From Escherichia phage EF3-1: DNA of 50,066 nucleotides. The translations under genes were made by a program, and so were the position numbers. The notes beneath the pieces are model-generated. The model made no database searches and was not told the origin of the DNA. It saw only the letters and a list, made by a program, of their open reading frames with translations. Location: sequence record PQ571291; one strand, 5' to 3'. Shown piece after piece: positions 33,031 through 40,677 of this stretch. The first letter of the stretch is position 1. Each line of letters begins with the position of its first letter.

Positions 33031-33062
33031 TGCGTGATTCCTCTGATTGGTTGATGAGATGA

Positions 33063-33107
33063 ATCATACCCGTTCTACCTGGCTGATGTGTTGCAAAAAA
33101 TGCTATT
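33063..33107 (-). promoter_or_regulatory. early-promoter cassette (minus strand) for leftward early operon
   Basis: Minus-strand AATAGCA-TTTTT-TGCAA variant, 22-bp spacer, TATGAT, leader CATCTCATCAACCAATCAGAGGA. Confidence 0.45.
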
Positions 33108-33120
33108 CCAATAGTTGCTC

Positions 33121-33240
33121 ATTATTCCATCAATACTGGAATATCTGGAATAATTGCGATCTCGATTGATCTCGAATGATGAAATGTGATTGTTGCATGA
33201 TGTGCAACTGTTGATGTGATTGTTGCTTAGAATGCAATGA
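33121..33240. repeat. operator-like palindromes and direct repeats in divergent early control region
   Basis: ATTATTCCA-N-TGGAATAAT inverted repeat; GATCTCGA x2; GTGATTGTTGC x2 about 30 bp apart; GTTGCA-TGATG-TGCAAC palindrome. Confidence 0.6.
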
Positions 33241-33412
33241 TTGTGAGAGGGAGGATTTAGTGTTACCCGGTTCGCCTGGTAGTCATCTCCATTTTTAGCA
33301 AAACGTGCTATCGATTACACTTTAACTTGTCACGACTGTAATATTTGTCTAGAATCGCACTTGTGACAAAATTACGCACTGTGACGCATAACAATAGACA
33401 TGTAGATATATG

Positions 33413-33460
33413 TATATATATAATATATATAGTGTTTTTTTATTTATATATATAGATAAT
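33413..33460. repeat. (TA)n-rich block TATATATAATATATATAG...TATATATAGATAAT shared with 14031-14058
   Basis: Near-identical TA-rich strings in both divergent control regions. Confidence 0.7.
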
Positions 33461-33713
33461 CATATTGTAATAGTTGTGTATATCCGTCTTACATTGTCTA
33501 GCGTACTGCTGGCATATTTCTATCTGCATGTTTATATATACAGTACTTTTTTGAGGGCTATATATTTCTATAGTGACTCTAGACAGCTAGACAAATATTA
33601 CACAGCTTAAAATTGGCTTGCAGTCGTTGACAGCTCTACGTCGCTCTGTCACAATGGCAATTGTTGACATGTTATGACACCATTTACACACCAATAGACA
33701 AAGAGAGCATATT

Positions 33714-34229
33714 ATGAGCAATACCAATCAGGAATTAAAAATCACCGATATGATTCGCCTAACCTGCGATGCAATGTACCGCGACAAAGGCATGAATGAG
33801 TTCTCTTTCGTGGCTGATGATATGGCCCTAGAAGCAGCGCGATTCTACTTTCGGGGCCAGGAGGTAAGTGATAGCGATCTTGAATCTGCCGCTGCCGGAT
33901 GGGTGGACCAGAACCAGGGGGAGGTAGAGAAGCGATTCAAATCTGCTTTCATCACTCCAATCATTACCCGACACTTTTGCAAGTATGGCAAAGTGGCAAA
34001 GGTGAAGGTAGGCCGGAATGACGCGGCAATCACGATGATAACCGTTATCGTTACCGACGAAGAGGTTCCGGTGAAGAAGCGCCGCAGCCGGAAAAAAGTT
34101 AGCTTGGCTGATTGCCTGGACTCGTTTGATGTTGATGTTAGCAAGCTGAGCGACAGCGAGTTAATGGTTCGTGATGTAAATGAGATCGTGCGCCAGATGA
34201 AAGCGCATATCGAAAAGTGTGGACTGTAA
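33714..34229 (+). CDS. hypothetical early protein (171 aa)
   Basis: First gene of rightward early block; SD AAGAGAG; basic patch KKRRSRKK. Confidence 0.6.
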   Translation: MSNTNQELKITDMIRLTCDAMYRDKGMNEFSFVADDMALEAARFYFRGQEVSDSDLESAAAGWVDQNQGEVEKRFKSAFITPIITRHFCKYGKVAKVKVGRNDAAITMITVIVTDEEVPVKKRRSRKKVSLADCLDSFDVDVSKLSDSELMVRDVNEIVRQMKAHIEKCGL

Positions 34230-34243
34230 GCACTGATAGGTGA

Positions 34244-34288
34244 AATAGCACTTTTTGTTAAAGCCCGGTCGAGCGGATCGGGTATTAT
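34244..34288 (+). promoter_or_regulatory. early-promoter cassette
   Basis: AATAGCAC-TTT-TTGTTAAAG, 22-bp spacer with CCCGG..CGGG inverted repeat, TATTAT (34283-34288), leader CTCATCGACACGA. Confidence 0.5.
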
Positions 34289-34320
34289 CTTCTCATCGAC
34301 ACGATACAGAGGAAAATAAG

Positions 34321-34515
34321 ATGGAAACGCAAATTGACGTAGTGGTTGTTCAGCGCGACTCAACTCATGAAAAGGGTCTGTTCAAGAAAGGAACCAAAAT
34401 CACGATCGACCTTGAGGATATGGTTGCATATCACTCGGGCCTTACCTGGAACGTGGTGCGCGTAGGTAGCGACTACAAACTCAAAGGATTTAACACTTAC
34501 TTTGCTGAGGCATAA
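34321..34515 (+). CDS. hypothetical protein (64 aa)
   Basis: ATG at 34321 (M23 of track ORF) with SD GAGGAAAA. Confidence 0.5.
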   Translation: METQIDVVVVQRDSTHEKGLFKKGTKITIDLEDMVAYHSGLTWNVVRVGSDYKLKGFNTYFAEA

Positions 34516-34517
34516 TC

Positions 34518-38522: not shown

Positions 38523-38725
38523 CAGCAGAAGATGCAGCACGCGACGCAGTTGAAGGAATGCGCCCAAATAGCTCCAGAATCGCCCACTACTACAAATCTG
38601 AGGTGTCGGCAGTGCAATTGGTCAGCGAGGTTTTAAGGCTCCCACAAGTCGATTCAGCGCGCGTGGTGACGTGCTTAAAAAATTATTTTTGCATCACTAT
38701 TAAAACGAATAGCACGAATTGCTAA
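38507..38725 (+). CDS. hypothetical protein (72 aa)
   Basis: Reads through the downstream motif (…TNSTNC-stop) and stops at TAA inside TTGCTAAAAC. Confidence 0.45.
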   Translation: MATIMTAEDAARDAVEGMRPNSSRIAHYYKSEVSAVQLVSEVLRLPQVDSARVVTCLKNYFCITIKTNSTNC

Positions 38726-38752
38726 AACCTATCAAGGGGAATGCGCTATGAT
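38708..38752 (+). promoter_or_regulatory. early-promoter cassette
   Basis: AATAGCAC-GAA-TTGCTAAAAC, 22-bp spacer with GGGGAAT..ATTCCCC inverted repeat, TATGAT (38747-38752). Confidence 0.5.
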
Positions 38753-38782
38753 TCCCCTACACCAACAAACGAGGGAACACTC

Positions 38783-39229
38783 ATGAAACATTTGATTTGC
38801 ATTGATACACCTAACAATGAACACACCCTGCACGGCATTGGAATGTTCAAAGGCCACTACATGACAGCAAGCATTTATGATGCGCGTCGCGGCGATGGCG
38901 ATCTGATGATTACGTCAAAAGACGTTAATCCGTACATCATGCAGAATCTTGGCAACAATGAATATATGGCTTACGGATGCAACGCGGTGTACAAGAATGT
39001 CAAGATCCGTAAGCGTATTGTTCGCGCATTTAAGAAAATCGCCATGAAATACTGGAAGATGAGCAAGAAGGACGCCGGACGCTGGGCGCGTAATGTTGCA
39101 GACTCATATTTCTATAGCGGAGGAGAGCCAGCCAGCTTCCTGATCGATGAAATGATGGAAAATTATAGCGGCACATTCTGCCAAAGTGACTTTGACGCCT
39201 GGGCTGAATACGAGGTCGACTGCTGGTAA
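38783..39229 (+). CDS. hypothetical protein (148 aa)
   Basis: ATG at 38783 (M15 of track ORF) with SD GAGGGAA. Confidence 0.6.
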   Translation: MKHLICIDTPNNEHTLHGIGMFKGHYMTASIYDARRGDGDLMITSKDVNPYIMQNLGNNEYMAYGCNAVYKNVKIRKRIVRAFKKIAMKYWKMSKKDAGRWARNVADSYFYSGGEPASFLIDEMMENYSGTFCQSDFDAWAEYEVDCW

Positions 39230-39272
39230 TAGCACTAATTGCTAAAACTTGCTCAAGGGCATTTGATAGAAT
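39228..39272 (+). promoter_or_regulatory. early-promoter cassette
   Basis: AATAGCAC-TAA-TTGCTAAAAC, 22-bp spacer with AAGGGCAT..ATGCCCTT inverted repeat, TG-a-TAGAAT (39267-39272), leader GCAACCAATCAGAGGA. Confidence 0.55.
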
Positions 39273-39312
39273 GCCCTTCGTTGAGTTAAGCAACCAATCA
39301 GAGGAATAAATC

Positions 39313-39924
39313 ATGGATAAAATTACCATTTGGGGTCAGACTATAAACCTGTTTCTCGGCACTCGCCGCGTGGCAATCTTTGACTTCGACGGAACACTGA
39401 GTGACGGCTCAAAACGTCTTCACCTGCTACCGACGAAAGATTTGCACTTGACGGAAAGCTGGTCTGAGTTCAACCGCGCGGCAATATTTGACAATCCTAT
39501 CCGTAGTACGATTGATGTGATGAACTCTATGTTTGCCGCTGGGTATCATGTGATCATTTTAACCGGGCGAAGCGATGAGGTTCGTTACGCATCTGAGTTA
39601 TGGCTTAAGCATCACGGCGCGCGATATGATTACTTAGTCATGAGGCCGCATACCGACAACCGCAAAGACACGGTAATGAAAGAAGAGGCGGTGCGAGCGA
39701 TCGGCATTGATAACATTCTGGCGGCCTGGGATGACTCACCGCAAATTATTCCATTATTCCGATCGCTTGGAATAACCACTTACGCTGTAGTTGACTATGG
39801 CGATAACGTTCACGATCATTTAAAATCTCATGGCGTAGATGAGGTTTGCAATCATGAACCATCTGAGCCGCTACCGCCATTTGGCGATAAAATATGCATT
39901 AAGTGCAAGGAGTTATTAAAGTGA
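39313..39924 (+). CDS. HAD-superfamily hydrolase (putative nucleotidase/phosphatase)
   Basis: HAD motif I FDFDGTL, motif II ILTGR, C-terminal acidic motif region. Confidence 0.7.
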   Translation: MDKITIWGQTINLFLGTRRVAIFDFDGTLSDGSKRLHLLPTKDLHLTESWSEFNRAAIFDNPIRSTIDVMNSMFAAGYHVIILTGRSDEVRYASELWLKHHGARYDYLVMRPHTDNRKDTVMKEEAVRAIGIDNILAAWDDSPQIIPLFRSLGITTYAVVDYGDNVHDHLKSHGVDEVCNHEPSEPLPPFGDKICIKCKELLK

Positions 39925-40031
39925 ACCTGTACGAATTTATTGCAGCGCATCCGGTATTAACGGTTATCATCCTGTTAATCATCAATCACACCATCATCAA
40001 TGTGGCAAAATTATTTTTAGGGAGATACTAA
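39921..40031 (+). CDS. small hydrophobic protein (36 aa, GTG start, not in ORF track)
   Basis: GTG overlapping HAD stop with SD AAGGAG 9 nt upstream; TM-like PVLTVIILLIINHTIINV. Confidence 0.4.
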   Translation: MNLYEFIAAHPVLTVIILLIINHTIINVAKLFLGRY

Positions 40032-40032
40032 C

Positions 40033-40605
40033 ATGAAAACAGCTATCGTTTTAAACGGTGCACCAGGCGCAGGAAAAGACACTATCGGATGCATCCTGGC
40101 TGACACTTACGAACATGTAGCGCTACGCAGCTTCAAAGCGCCAATGTTTGAGATTGCCCGAGCAATCCTGGGTGAGGCTAATTTCGAATATTTCATGTTC
40201 TTGTATGAGGACCGTCGCTACAAAGAAGAGCCAGCGTCAATCCTGAACGGTAAAAGCCCACGCCAGTTTATGATCTGGATTAGCGAAGAAGTAATCAAGC
40301 CTCAGTTCGGTAATCGCTTCTTCGGTATGCGAGCAGAAAGCAAGGTGAAAGAGTCGCACTCCCTTTCGGTATTTACTGACGGTGGATTCAAAGATGAGAT
40401 CCTGCAAATGATTGAAGGTGATATCCAGGTCAAGCTATGCCGCATCCATCGCAATGGTTGCAACTTCGATAATGACAGTCGAGACTATATCTACCTTGAT
40501 GATATGATCGGAGTTAACGGTTATCAGGAGTGTGATTTCTTCTCTGTTGAGGGTCATCCTGAAATTACCGCTCAGCACATAGCCGCCACGTTCATCAATA
40601 AATAG
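40033..40605 (+). CDS. deoxynucleoside monophosphate kinase-like P-loop kinase
   Basis: Walker A LNGAPGAGKDT and NGKSP motif resembling T4 gp1 dNMP kinase; SD GGGAGA. Confidence 0.65.
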   Translation: MKTAIVLNGAPGAGKDTIGCILADTYEHVALRSFKAPMFEIARAILGEANFEYFMFLYEDRRYKEEPASILNGKSPRQFMIWISEEVIKPQFGNRFFGMRAESKVKESHSLSVFTDGGFKDEILQMIEGDIQVKLCRIHRNGCNFDNDSRDYIYLDDMIGVNGYQECDFFSVEGHPEITAQHIAATFINK

Positions 40606-40645
40606 CACGAATTGATAAAACGTCGATGGGGTGATTTGATATAGT
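40601..40645 (+). promoter_or_regulatory. early-promoter cassette
   Basis: AATAGCAC-GAA-TTGATAAAAC, 22-bp spacer, TG-a-TATAGT (40640-40645), leader TACCTCATCGACAACGAAGAGAG. Confidence 0.55.
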
Positions 40646-40677
40646 TACCTCATCGACAACGAAGAGAGAAAATCGAA

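What the first reader, a model, noticed from the sequence alone, without database searches (positions are those of the whole stretch)
33031..40677. Two conserved 5'-leader families upstream of early start codons
Downstream of the -10-like box the leaders fall into two families. One is (T)ACCCCATCGA(C/A)AACGA(A/T)GAGG, seen before the genes at 34321, 36115, 40678, 31587, 32056 and 22533. The other is AACCAATCAG(A/T)GAGG, seen before 35064, 37409, 39313, 29541, 33030 and also the late chaperone gene at 3019. Both embed the Shine-Dalgarno sequence. Conservation beyond the SD suggests shared translational control, an RNA-binding protein site or a transcript-stability element.
Basis: seen in the sequence. 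Interest (0 to 1): 0.55.

Follow-up and report, generated by a model that had tools for sequence, protein, structure and literature searches.

The report
T1-like phage promoter-leader cassettes
The two conserved "leaders" are the downstream halves of a ~75-base expression cassette that T1-like phages place before about twenty genes: one motif marks the transcription start, the other sits at the ribosome site and belongs to an unexplained nine-base word found throughout the genome, and the cassette's upstream half matches a binding site for the host's MarA/SoxS/Rob stress activators.

Summary
The window is a complete T1-like phage genome (Tunavirus, Drexlerviridae). The motifs are real and conserved across the family, but they are not two alternative leaders. 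They are two modules at different fixed positions in a ~75-nt intergenic cassette. The cassette runs: stop codon, 20-bp repeat, GC-rich hairpin, -10 box, start site, short A/C-rich unstructured 5'UTR, SD, ATG.

Family A (CATCGAAACGA) is locked to the -10 box. Its A lies exactly 7 nt downstream in 82 of 85 cassettes. I read it as discriminator, start site and initial transcribed sequence, resembling T7 A1.

Family B (ACCAATCAG) is locked to the start codon, 10-11 nt upstream. It is a subset of a genome-wide 9-mer, ACCARTCAG, with 28 copies in both orientations, mostly inside genes. Codon-preserving shuffles give 2.3 copies inside genes against 20 observed. Orthologous coding sites keep it in 92% of cases. 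Its reader is unknown.

The upstream repeat is the published Drexlerviridae 21-nt direct repeat, whose function is listed as an open question. It matches the MarA/SoxS/Rob marbox consensus and has the same 18-bp spacing to the -10 box as E. coli micF. No phage AraC-type protein was found.

Cassettes coincide with mosaic breakpoints, as T4 PeSLs do. All functions are inferred from sequence.

The parts
33031..33106 (-). Cassette before the gene starting at 33030. Degenerate repeat/marbox-like box 33087-33106, -10 TATGAT 33063-33068, predicted +1 33056, 9-mer ACCAATCAG 33043-33051, then SD.
34245..34320 (+). Cassette before 34321. Box ATAGCACTTTTTGTTAAAGC 34245-34264, spacer hairpin from 34263, -10 TATTAT 34283-34288, predicted +1 A 34295, weak family A CATCGACA 34294-34301.
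34982..35063 (+). Cassette before 35064 that carries both modules. Box 34982-35001 (its TAG is the stop codon of gene 34518-34985), -10 TATAGT 35020-35025, +1 A 35032, family A 35031-35038, family B 9-mer 35045-35053.
36040..36114 (+). Cassette before 36115. Box 36040-36059, hairpin GGGGTT/AACCCC around the -10 box, -10 TATAGT 36078-36083, +1 A 36090, family A CATCGACAACGA from 36089.
36601..36674 (+). Cassette before 36675. Box 36601-36620, hairpin GGGGATT/AATCCCC, -10 TACAAT 36639-36644, +1 A 36651, CA-rich leader. A reverse-oriented 9-mer (CTGACTGGT) lies at 36631-36639 in the hairpin loop.
37327..37408 (+). Cassette before 37409. Box 37327-37346, hairpin AAGGCCA/TGGCCTT around the -10 box, -10 TATAGT 37365-37370, +1 A 37377 (ATTGAAGC), family B 9-mer 37391-37399, 9 nt before the ATG.
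38709..38782 (+). Cassette before 38783. Box 38709-38728, hairpin GGGGAAT/ATTCCCC, -10 TATGAT 38747-38752, +1 A 38759, CA-rich leader with neither A nor B.
39229..39312 (+). Cassette before 39313 (polynucleotide kinase). Box 39229-39248, hairpin AAGGGCAT/ATGCCCTT, -10 TAGAAT 39267-39272, family B 9-mer 39293-39301, 11 nt before the ATG.
40602..40677 (+). Cassette before 40678. Box 40602-40621 (its TAG is the stop codon of gene 40033-40605), 11-bp hairpin 40622-40657 enclosing the -10 box (-23 kcal/mol), -10 TATAGT 40640-40645, +1 A 40652, family A CATCGACAACGA from 40651.
32057..32133 (-). Cassette before 32056. Box 32114-32133, -10 CATAAT 32090-32095, +1 A 32083, family A CATCGAAACGA.
31588..31669 (-). 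Cassette before 31587. Box 31650-31669, spacer hairpin, -10 CATTAT 31626-31631, +1 A 31619, family A. Its first 47 nt are identical to the cassette at 22462 on the other strand.
29542..29621 (-). Cassette before 29541. Box 29602-29621, hairpin AAGGTCA/TGACCTT, -10 TAAAGT 29578-29583, +1 A 29571, family B 9-mer 29553-29561.
30060..30136 (-). Cassette before 30059. Box 30117-30136, hairpin GGGAGTAA/TTACTCCC, CA-rich leader.
31178..31252 (-). Cassette before 31177. Box 31233-31252, -10 TATAGT 31209-31214, +1 A 31202 (ATCAACAGC).
22462..22532 (+). Cassette before the Dam methylase gene at 22533. Box 22462-22481 (its TAG is the stop codon of gene 22049-22465), spacer hairpin, -10 CATTAT 22500-22505, +1 A 22512, degenerate family A (ACCGAAACGAGAGG).
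23485..23545 (+). Cassette before 23546. Box 23485-23504, spacer hairpin TACCCGGC/GTCGGGTA, -10 TATAGT 23523-23528, +1 A 23535 (ATAGAAACGAAATGAGG).
25473..25545 (+). Cassette before 25546. Degenerate box 25473-25492, spacer hairpin, -10 TATAGT 25511-25516, +1 A 25523 (ATAGAAAACAAAGAGGG).
19952..20033 (+). Cassette before the helicase gene at 20034. Box 19952-19971, -10 TATTAT 19990-19995, leader ATCGTAAACGATACAACGAT.
3000..3008 (+). 9-mer ACCAATCAG 10 nt before the late gene at 3019. There is no forward repeat here. An inverted copy of the repeat box (2978-2997, minus strand) abuts it.
15488..15533 (+). Leader without the repeat, before the erf-like gene (ATG 15534). Hairpin ATGAGGTG/CACCTCAT (15488-15511) encloses TATAAT (15497-15502). 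It is followed by the 9-mer ACCAATCAG at 15514-15522, 11 nt before the ATG.
   Evidence: coordinates read from that output
30608..30616 (+). 9-mer in reverse orientation relative to the minus-strand gene it precedes. It reads CCTGACTGGT-TAGGAGGAATA-ATG on the minus strand, with the start codon at 30596.
33327..33655 (+). The strongest canonical sigma-70 -35/-10 matches (10-11 of 12 positions) in the scanned stretch, in the AT-rich non-coding region upstream of the first rightward gene (33714).
1..50066 (.). All 28 copies of ACCARTCAG. Plus strand, start coordinates: 923, 3000, 6388, 13821, 15514, 22348, 30608, 33723, 35045, 37391, 39293, 42058. Minus strand, low coordinate: 5959, 8132, 9855, 12249, 15016, 16394, 20589, 22268, 24080, 28581, 29553, 33043, 34848, 36631, 43797, 46250.

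Best explanation
The two leader families are two position-locked modules of one composite intergenic expression cassette of about 75 nt. T1-like phages (Drexlerviridae) repeat it about 20 times per genome.

Reading 5' to 3', the cassette contains:
1. The stop codon of the upstream gene, usually the TAG inside the repeat.
2. The 20-bp repeat ATAGCACnnnTTGyTAAAAc.
3. An 18-bp spacer carrying the 5' arm of a GC-rich hairpin.
4. A -10 hexamer, often of the extended TGn type.
5. A C-rich 6-nt discriminator and an A start.
6. A 23-34-nt A/C-rich, structure-free 5'UTR.
7. SD and ATG.

Family A (yCATCGAAACGA) is the discriminator end, the predicted +1 A and the initial transcribed sequence. It most likely sets the start site and favours promoter escape, as in the similar T7 A1 start region. 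In the shortest leaders it runs straight into the SD (ATCGAAACGAGAGGA).

Family B (AACCAATCAG) is a separate module placed 10-11 nt before the start codon, abutting the SD. It is the ribosome-site-adjacent subset of a genome-wide 9-mer, ACCARTCAG. That 9-mer is under selection in coding DNA in both orientations, so it is most likely the recognition site of a family-specific factor that is still unidentified.

The upstream repeat is best read as a class II marbox. On that reading the cassettes would be promoters helped by host MarA/SoxS/Rob (RamA in Klebsiella). The hairpin most likely ends or stabilises the upstream transcript.

Shown here: positions, spacings, conservation, covariation, enrichment and breakpoint association. 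Inferred: start site, activator binding, terminator role, and every functional effect.
For: Repeat, spacing and -10 box:
- TAGCACnnnTTGyTA lies exactly 22 nt from xAnnnT in about 20 window cassettes, always pointing at the downstream gene.
- The same holds in 245-294 distinct cassettes from T1, Rtp, TLS, KP36, Rogue1 and IMG/VR contigs.

Family A:
- Information content peaks at CCyCA 3-7 nt after the -10 box and then at tcgAAAc.AA.
- The A of CATCGA is 7 nt after the -10 box in 82/85 cassettes.
- A YA dinucleotide occupies that position in 81% of cassettes.
- CATCGAAACGA is among the most over-represented words in Rtp and Rogue1.
- T7 A1 reads GATACT-TACAGCC-A(+1)TCGAGAGGG.

Family B:
- It lies 10-11 nt from the start codon in 33/36 leaders, while its offset from the -10 box varies.
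- Copy numbers are 28 in the window, 25-29 in T1, IME18, ADB-2 and TLS, 15 in KP36, 9 in Rtp, 5 in Rogue1 and 1 in lambda.
- It occurs in several reading frames and on both strands.
- Synonymous-codon shuffles give 2.3 +/- 1.3 copies against 20 observed inside genes.
- It is retained in 92% of orthologous coding sites, against 40% for flanking 9-mers.

Leaders:
- 48% A and 25% C, median length 26 nt.
- Mean MFE -1.4 kcal/mol.

Hairpin:
- Mean MFE -13.0 against -7.1 kcal/mol for shuffled sequences.
- Preferred fixed registers and 39 distinct arm pairs.
- Compensatory changes at 9 of 11 pairs.

Marbox reading:
- Published consensi are AYnGCACnnWnnRYYAAAY and gcannwwntgnnaaa.
- Class II sites are in forward orientation, centred near -41, and lack a -35 element.
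- micF, read directly, has ACAGCACTGAATGTCAAAAC, then 18 bp, then TAGAAT.
- The canonical sigma-70 scan misses these promoters.

Cassette and mosaicism:
- The upstream ORF ends at the repeat's TAG in 146/295 cassettes.
- Homology breakpoints against T1, IME18 and ADB-2 fall in cassettes in 10/26, 7/18 and 7/20 cases, against 6% expected.
Against: No transcription start site has been mapped for any T1-like phage in the literature I could search, so +1 is a prediction from spacing.

Similarity to T7 A1 covers only about 7 nt around the start.

Part of the C-rich discriminator may be there because it forms the 3' arm of the hairpin rather than for initiation.

Most cassettes (about 170 of 294) carry neither exact word, so A and B are the commonest variants of a continuum.

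Cassette lineages exist. The GGCCTT-ATTGAAGC-AACCAATCAG type is distinct from the TACCCC-ATCGAAACGA type. Shared descent and gene conversion therefore explain part of the similarity.

The hairpins mostly lack a U-tract, so a terminator role is unproven. G.T and A.C mismatches beside the stems are equally frequent (182 against 164), so the data do not say whether the structure acts in RNA or in DNA.

The last marbox position (Y) is A in most repeats, although micF has A there too.
Confidence: 0.65

Rival explanations
1. RNA-level operator. ACCAAUCAG next to the SD is bound on the mRNA by a translational repressor or activator, or by an sRNA seed. This would co-regulate a set of early and late genes, in the way T4 RegA operators do.
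For: The motif is locked to the start codon, not to the promoter. At ribosome sites it is in the sense orientation 35 times against 8 times reversed across eight genomes. It occurs before genes that lack the repeat promoter (3019, 15534). The R position (A or G) would pair with a U in either case. From memory only, the OmrA/B seed UGAUUGGU is complementary to ACCAAUCA.
Against: About 80% of copies are not at ribosome sites. Coding copies are as often antisense as sense, yet they are selected and conserved. Eight ribosome-site copies are in reverse orientation at the same distance. An 8-nt match to one of about 100 sRNAs is expected by chance about one time in ten. No phage RNA-binding regulator was identified.
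Confidence: 0.25
2. Descent, not function. The leaders are similar only because whole cassettes are copied and homogenised by recombination. In this view they act as portable homology for gene shuffling, like T4 PeSLs, and the leader sequence itself has no specific role.
For: Mosaic breakpoints concentrate in cassettes. Cassettes at 22462(+) and 31669(-) share 47 identical nt including the variable spacer. Recognisable cassette lineages exist.
Against: The A and B words persist at fixed positions across subfamilies whose spacers and hairpin arms have diverged completely. Conservation is position-specific rather than uniform. The 9-mer is also selected inside genes, where cassette copying cannot act.
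Confidence: 0.3
3. The repeat and/or the +1 region are operators for a phage protein rather than for host factors. One candidate is the Cro-like HTH protein (window 19487-19939, minus strand; T1 gp23 family). It could bind the quasi-palindrome TAGCA-N5-TGCTA or TCGAAACGA, either to shut off or to switch on early promoters. The published 'stoperator'/enhancer suggestions for the repeat are of this kind.
For: TAGCA-N5-TGCTA is a 5-bp inverted repeat. A conserved regulator with a weak P22_Cro match exists in all genomes examined. The first rightward gene has canonical promoters, so a phage activator could be made first. The TLS paper raises stoperator or enhancer roles.
Against: 37% of repeats have TTGTTA, which breaks the palindrome but fits the marbox Y position. 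The W-only positions, the invariant GCAC and AAA, and the 18-bp spacing all follow the marbox and micF pattern. Leftward and rightward early genes would need the protein before it exists.
Confidence: 0.25
4. ACCARTCAG is a DNA-level genome mark. Options are a self/non-self or Chi-like signal for the phage's helicase-nuclease or recombination machinery, a priming site for the Zn-ribbon primase, or a methylation target. Its presence in leaders would then be incidental, because intergenic DNA tolerates it and its purine tail can double as an SD.
For: Both orientations and several reading frames are used. Enrichment is about 9-fold over codon-preserving shuffles. Spacing is more even than random, with CV 0.67 against 0.95, P=0.017. 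The enrichment is specific to the family: lambda has 1 copy. The TLS authors list how T1-like phages degrade host DNA as an open question.
Against: There is no orientation polarity. 21% of copies sit exactly 9-12 nt before start codons, far more than incidental placement predicts. Leader copies are always the A variant in this window. E. coli itself had 4 copies in one 50-kb sample, so the contrast with the host is less than 28 to 1. No reader protein is known.
Confidence: 0.3

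Closest known systems
Drexlerviridae 21-nt intergenic direct repeat (aaATAGCACnnnTTGnTAAAA), described for phage TLS and noted in T1, Rtp and Rogue1 (PMC11447400)
   Same: It is the same element. [quoted passage not shown] It has the same T, G and A sub-types.
   Different: The paper treats only the 21-mer and lists its function as an open question. It does not report the fixed 22-nt distance to a -10 box, the hairpin, the conserved start region (family A), the ACCARTCAG word (family B) or the marbox match.
Class II MarA/SoxS/Rob/RamA-dependent promoters, with E. 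coli micF as the paradigm
   Same: There is a 20-bp asymmetric box with GCAC and AAA recognition elements 7 bp apart. It is in forward orientation, lies 18 bp upstream of the -10 hexamer and is centred near -41. There is no usable -35 element, and the -10 box is canonical or extended. micF ACAGCACTGAATGTCAAAAC and the phage ATAGCACGAATTGCTAAAAC are identical at 14 of 20 positions.
   Different: The phage has about 20 copies per 50 kb, and they are far closer to consensus than most chromosomal marboxes. Positions 2-3 are fixed as TA so that TAG can serve as a stop codon. A GC-rich hairpin occupies the spacer. Binding and activation have not been tested, and the physiological activator is unknown (Rob is, to my memory, constitutive and abundant).
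PeSLs (promoter-early stem-loops): composite terminator/promoter cassettes of T4-like phages (PMC2839356, PMC4122927)
   Same: Both are short repeated cassettes that combine a stem-loop with an early promoter. Both flank small variable ORFs and coincide with indel or recombination junctions between close relatives.
   Different: The sequence and phage family are unrelated. The promoter part here has a marbox-like upstream element instead of a T4 early promoter. The cassette also includes a conserved start region, leader and stop codon. Recombination activity is inferred only from where breakpoints lie.
T7 A1 early promoter start region
   Same: The -10 box is followed by TAC..CC and a transcript that starts AUCGA and is purine-rich (T7: TACAGCC-ATCGAGAGGG; here: TACCCC-ATCGAAACGAGAGG).
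   Different: Identity covers only about 7 nt. T7 A1 has a normal -35 element and a 7-nt rather than a 6-nt discriminator. Functional equivalence has not been tested.
Translational operators of T4 RegA-type repressors
   Same: A short conserved word overlaps or abuts the ribosome sites of several unrelated mRNAs (family B).
   Different: Most copies of the word are outside ribosome sites and on either strand. No RegA-like protein was found.
Genome-wide over-represented oligomers such as Chi or DNA uptake sequences
   Same: A non-palindromic 8-10-mer is enriched well above codon-aware expectation, is embedded in genes in several reading frames, and is conserved among relatives.
   Different: The sequence is unrelated to E. 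coli Chi (GCTGGTGG occurs once here). There is no orientation bias, and there is a strong secondary preference for a fixed position before start codons.

Membership tests
Drexlerviridae 21-nt direct repeat cassette | Consensus aaATAGCACnnnTTGnTAAAA | tested here: met
   19 exact pattern matches and about 25 matches allowing up to 2 mismatches in the window.
Drexlerviridae 21-nt direct repeat cassette | Intergenic, in the direction of transcription, about 76 nt upstream of the start codon | tested here: met
   Distance to the start codon is 60-83 nt in the window. The median is 75 over 275 cassettes.
Class II marbox (MarA/SoxS/Rob) promoter | 20-bp asymmetric box AYnGCACnnWnnRYYAAAYn / gcannwwntgnnaaa | tested here: met
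   Both main repeat types match 15/15 of the short definition and 18/19 of the long one. The final Y is A, as in micF. Variable repeat positions coincide with n, W and Y positions. The strict pattern gives 17 hits in the window, 0 in 50 kb of E. coli and 0 in lambda.
Class II marbox (MarA/SoxS/Rob) promoter | Forward orientation, overlapping the -35 position, centred near -41, same spacing to the -10 box as micF | tested here: met
   The box ends 18 bp before the -10 hexamer in the phage and in micF, which was read from NC_000913. The centre is at -40.5 relative to the predicted +1. The +1 itself is predicted, not mapped.
Class II marbox (MarA/SoxS/Rob) promoter | No recognisable -35 hexamer, with a canonical -10 box | tested here: met
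   The sigma-70 -35/-10 scan does not call any repeat promoter. The -10 boxes are TATAGT, TATTAT or CATAAT, and G at -14 is strongly conserved.
Class II marbox (MarA/SoxS/Rob) promoter | Bound and activated by MarA, SoxS or Rob | not testable with these tools
   This needs EMSA, in vitro transcription and mutant hosts. There is no phage AraC/XylS-type protein: phmmer with MarA and SoxS found nothing, and Pfam on 52 non-structural proteins gave no HTH_18 or HTH_AraC match.
PeSL-type composite terminator/promoter cassette | Stem-loop fused to an early promoter, repeated between small ORFs | tested here: met
   Hairpin mean MFE is -13.0 against -7.1 kcal/mol for shuffled sequences. 87% of cassettes have at least 6 consecutive pairs. 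Arms covary. Annotators of related genomes marked these hairpins as rho-independent terminators.
PeSL-type composite terminator/promoter cassette | Coincides with indel or recombination junctions between close relatives | tested here: met
   35-39% of homology-block ends fall within cassettes, against 6% expected.
PeSL-type composite terminator/promoter cassette | Stem-loop acts as a transcription terminator | tested here: inconclusive
   Most hairpins lack a T-run. The terminator scan calls only 34263-34283 among them. No 3'-end data exist.
Translational operator (RegA-like) | Motif confined to the sense strand at the ribosome sites of the regulated mRNAs | tested here: not met
   Only 7 of 28 copies are adjacent to a ribosome site in the sense orientation. 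13 coding copies are antisense.
Chi-like oriented genome signal | Over-representation together with orientation bias relative to DNA ends or replication | tested here: not met
   Over-representation is met. Orientation bias is not: 12 copies are on the plus strand and 16 on the minus strand, interleaved.
Known structured RNA families (Rfam) | Match to a covariance model at its gathering score | tested here: not met
   No matches in the whole window.

The most novel reading that the evidence does not exclude
The cassette is a host-activator-dependent promoter. On this reading the early and middle promoters of Drexlerviridae are class II marbox promoters read by Rob/MarA/SoxS (RamA in Klebsiella). 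A whole family of virulent enteric phages would then tie its gene expression to the host's bile, antibiotic and oxidative stress regulators. The ribosome-site-adjacent ACCAATCAG would belong to a second family-wide code (ACCARTCAG) read by an unknown phage-specific factor. This would answer the question that the TLS authors list as open.
Probability: 0.4. Interest if true: 0.8.

Novelty: new variant of a known kind. Interest (0 to 1): 0.62.

Why it matters
T1 is one of the seven classical T phages, yet its promoters have never been defined. Standard searches find almost none. The 2024 re-annotation of TLS lists the function of the 21-base repeat as an open question.

If the marbox reading holds, a large family of enteric phages, including therapy candidates against E. 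coli, Shigella and Klebsiella, would respond to the same regulators that drive multidrug resistance. That bears on combining phages with antibiotics and on phage behaviour in bile.

The ACCARTCAG word is a separate, clean puzzle. It is a strongly selected 9-mer with no known reader, in a phage family whose host-DNA degradation and self-recognition are not understood.

The cassettes also give a mechanistic handle on gene shuffling in these genomes, and a compact natural part (stop, promoter, unstructured leader, ribosome site) for engineering.

Tried and rejected
The cores, not the full strings, are what is conserved.
- A canonical sigma-70 promoter/terminator scan does not detect the cassettes.
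- Sigma-54 similarity (TGGCAC-N5-TTGC) was considered and rejected by reading the sequence. The spacing is 2 nt short, and the invariant GG is AG.
- TTGyTA as a -35 element was rejected. It lies 22 nt from the -10 box, not 17.
- IHF and other E. coli factor consensi recalled from memory (PdhR half-site, Cra, FadR, RutR and others) were compared with ACCARTCAG. None fits, and none was tested formally.
- 16S rRNA complementarity of ACCAAUCAG was checked from memory only. There is no convincing pairing, and mRNA upstream of the SD lies beyond the 3' end of the 16S rRNA.
- A peptide or codon-usage origin of the 9-mer was rejected by the multiple reading frames and by codon-preserving shuffles.
- E. 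coli Chi occurs only once in the window.
- A phage-encoded MarA-like protein was not found.
- Rfam gave no match.
- Literature searches were made for the exact repeat, the 9-mer, marbox plus phage, and Drexlerviridae plus Rob/MarA/SoxS, and for Drexlerviridae transcription start sites or transcriptomes. Nothing relevant turned up beyond the TLS paper.
- A strand-of-action test for the hairpin, comparing G.T with A.C mismatches beside the stems, was uninformative (182 against 164).
- The first attempt at the codon-shuffle script timed out and was rerun.

Full report
**What the window is.** The 50,066-bp window is a complete genome of a T1-like phage. It is about 90% identical over the early region to Tunavirus genomes such as SA12KD, IME18 and Sfin-1. 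It is collinear with T1 as a circular permutation. Its first 141 bases are repeated exactly at its end.

**Checking the observation.** The full-length consensi are too strict. They find 3 sites each even with 2-3 mismatches allowed. The cores are strongly non-random:
- CATCGA[AC]A occurs 9 times, 6 of them directly after a -10 box.
- CCAATCAG occurs 16 times against about 2 expected.

This lies at a fixed 22 nt upstream of the -10 box and always points at the downstream gene. There are about 20 such cassettes on both strands.

**The upstream repeat is already published.** It is the 21-nt direct repeat of phage TLS, also noted in T1, Rtp and Rogue1. The authors found only three canonical promoters and listed the repeat's function among open questions. 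Their paper does not mention a fixed -10 spacing, the leader motifs or CCAATCAG.

**Anatomy across the family.** I collected 245-294 distinct cassettes from T1, Rtp, TLS, KP36, Rogue1, IME18, ADB-2 and IMG/VR contigs and aligned them in register.
- After the repeat comes an 18-bp variable, G-rich spacer.
- A strongly conserved G lies at -14.
- The -10 box is TAtaaT-like.
- Next comes a C-rich discriminator (taCCyC) and an A.
- The following bases read tcgAAAc.AA.

The A of CATCGA lies exactly 7 nt after the -10 box in 82 of 85 cassettes, while its distance to the start codon varies (25.6 +/- 6 nt). A YA dinucleotide occupies that position in 81% of all cassettes. CATCGAAACGA is among the most over-represented words in Rtp and Rogue1, whose spacers are unrelated to those of the window.

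Family A is therefore tied to the promoter. I read it as the discriminator end, the start site and the initial transcribed sequence. It resembles the start region of the strong T7 A1 promoter (GATACT-TACAGCC-A(+1)TCGAGAGGG). In the shortest leaders it runs directly into the SD (ATCGAAACGAGAGGA).

**The leaders as RNA.** The predicted 5'UTRs have a median length of 26 nt and are 48% A and 25% C. They are essentially unstructured, with mean MFE -1.4 kcal/mol against about -5 for random genomic segments of equal length. That argues against a 5' stabilising structure and for an open ribosome site. Rfam gives no match.

**Family B behaves differently.** In leaders it lies 10-11 nt before the start codon in 33 of 36 cases, and its distance from the -10 box varies. 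It also precedes genes without the repeat (3019 and 15534).

It is only a subset of a genome-wide 9-mer, ACCARTCAG:
- The window has 28 copies against about 1.2 expected. This is the second most over-represented word family after the repeat.
- T1, IME18, ADB-2 and TLS have 25-29 copies, KP36 has 15, Rtp 9, Rogue1 5 and lambda 1. One 50-kb sample of E. coli had 4.
- Twenty copies lie inside genes, in several reading frames and on both strands.
- Shuffling synonymous codons within genes gives 2.3 +/- 1.3 copies, with a maximum of 6 in 200 shuffles.
- Orthologous coding sites keep the motif in 92% of distinct sequences, against 40% for flanking 9-mers. A/G swaps occur at the R position.
- The copies are spaced more evenly than random (CV 0.67 against 0.95, P=0.017).
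- Across eight genomes, 21% of copies sit 9-12 nt before a start codon in the sense orientation and 5% in the reverse orientation.

The 9-mer is therefore a selected signal that an mRNA-only model cannot explain. Its preference for the ribosome site is nevertheless real. I could not identify its reader. No literature hit exists.

**The hairpin.** The segment from spacer to start region folds far better than shuffled sequence (-13.0 against -7.1 kcal/mol). 87% of cassettes have at least 6 consecutive pairs. The preferred registers either enclose the upstream half of the -10 box or lie wholly in the spacer.

Arm sequences differ between cassettes and covary. Nine of 11 pairs show changes on both sides, and the covariation score is 0.54 against 0.18 or less for slid partners. 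A caveat applies: the 48 sequences were chosen for pairing in that register.

Annotators of related genomes marked these hairpins as rho-independent terminators. Most lack a T-run, and a mismatch-type test could not tell RNA from DNA. Part of the C-richness of family A reflects the 3' arm of this hairpin.

**The repeat matches the marbox.** The repeat fits the MarA/SoxS/Rob binding-site consensus AYnGCACnnWnnRYYAAAY. It also fits gcannwwntgnnaaa at 15 of 15 positions for both main sub-types. Its variable positions are those that are n, W or Y in the consensus.

Class II marbox promoters have the box in forward orientation, overlapping the -35 position and centred near -41. They have no recognisable -35 element and a normal -10 box. 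I read the paradigm, E. coli micF, directly. It has ACAGCACTGAATGTCAAAAC, then 18 bp, then TAGAAT, then 7 nt, then +1. The phage cassettes have ATAGCAC(GAA/TTT)TTG(C/T)TAAAAC, then 18 bp, then the -10 box. The geometry is the same, and 14 of 20 bases are identical.

The strict pattern followed by a -10 box at this spacing occurs 10-14 times in each Drexlerviridae genome. It does not occur in 50 kb of E. coli, and the strict marbox pattern itself gives no hit in lambda. No AraC/XylS-type protein is encoded in the window, so a host factor is the simplest reader. No paper in the searchable library links marboxes or Rob/MarA/SoxS to these phages. This is inference from sequence. Binding and activation are untested.

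**Cassette boundaries and mosaicism.** In 146 of 295 cassettes the upstream ORF ends at the TAG inside the repeat. In a further 56 it ends at a TAA just before or inside the repeat. This explains why two positions that are degenerate in the marbox are fixed as TA in the phage repeat.

Ends of homology blocks between the window and T1, IME18 or ADB-2 fall within cassettes in 10/26, 7/18 and 7/20 cases, against 6% expected. Two cassettes on opposite strands share 47 identical bases. This parallels the PeSL terminator/promoter cassettes that mediate modular shuffling in T4-like phages. Cassette lineages exist, for example GGCCTT-ATTGAAGC-AACCAATCAG against TACCCC-ATCGAAACGA.

In close relatives the cassette is at least as conserved as the flanking coding sequence:

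| Region | Mean identity to orthologs |
|---|---|
| 20-bp repeat | 0.96 |
| 18-bp spacer | 0.95 |
| -10 box | 0.99 |
| Discriminator and start region | 0.95 |
| Rest of the leader | 0.99 |
| Flanking coding sequence | 0.92-0.93 |

**Verdict.** The interpretation as shared post-transcriptional control is at best half right:
- Family A belongs to the promoter and start site.
- Family B is a ribosome-site-adjacent copy of an unexplained genome-wide word.
- Both sit in a composite cassette whose upstream half is a known repeat of unknown function, and that repeat is best read as a class II marbox.

Nothing here has been tested experimentally. The model gives exact coordinates and mutations for doing so.

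Noticed in passing
window, all cassettes, e.g. 34982-35001, 40602-40621, 32114-32133(-): The published 21-nt Drexlerviridae repeat matches the MarA/SoxS/Rob marbox consensus. It lies 18 bp upstream of the -10 box, the same spacing as in E. coli micF (class II geometry). No phage AraC-type protein was found, and no publication of this link was found.
   Followed up: yes
window, 28 sites (list in parts); also L002, L123-L125, L127-L129: The 9-mer ACCARTCAG is about 9-fold enriched over codon-preserving shuffles. It occurs on both strands and in several reading frames, is conserved at orthologous coding sites, and is spaced more evenly than random. It is abundant in T1, TLS and KP36, weaker in Rtp and Rogue1, and at chance level in lambda.
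   Followed up: partly
window cassettes; alignment A2 columns 24-34 with 43-53: A GC-rich hairpin in a fixed register encloses the TGn and the upstream half of the -10 box. Its arms covary between cassettes. A second class of hairpin lies wholly within the spacer. Whether it acts in RNA or DNA, and whether it terminates transcription, is unresolved.
   Followed up: partly
window 34983-34985, 36041-36043, 37328-37330, 40603-40605, 22463-22465: The TAG inside the repeat is the stop codon of the upstream gene in about half of all cassettes (146/295). TAA codons just before or inside the repeat end a further 56, so a stop in or next to the repeat is used in each of the three reading frames.
   Followed up: yes
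window 2978-2997(-), 49138-49157(-), 18410-18429(+): Copies of the repeat with plausible -10 boxes point against the surrounding late or tail-fibre genes. They could drive antisense transcripts or be remnants.
   Followed up: no
window 33110-33700: An AT-rich non-coding region lies between the divergent early arms. It holds the strongest canonical -35/-10 matches of the scanned stretch, a duplicated ATGTGATTGTTGC and long TA runs. It may contain immediate-early promoters and possibly an origin or packaging signals.
   Followed up: no
window 22449-22508(+) and 31623-31682(-): Two cassettes on opposite strands are identical over 47 nt, including the otherwise variable spacer hairpin. This indicates recent copying or gene conversion.
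   Followed up: partly
window 1-141 and 49926-50066: The first 141 bases are repeated exactly at the end of the window. This is an assembly overlap of a circularly permuted genome or part of a terminal repeat. The unique length is 49,925 bp.
   Followed up: partly
window 34321-34515(+): The small early protein matches Pfam PF25180, 'Phage antiviral trigger protein Gp54' (E=9e-36).
   Followed up: no
window 19443-19483(-): The cassette-like repeat downstream of the Cro-like regulator gene carries a classical intrinsic terminator (a hairpin followed by a T-run) rather than a promoter-type hairpin.
   Followed up: no
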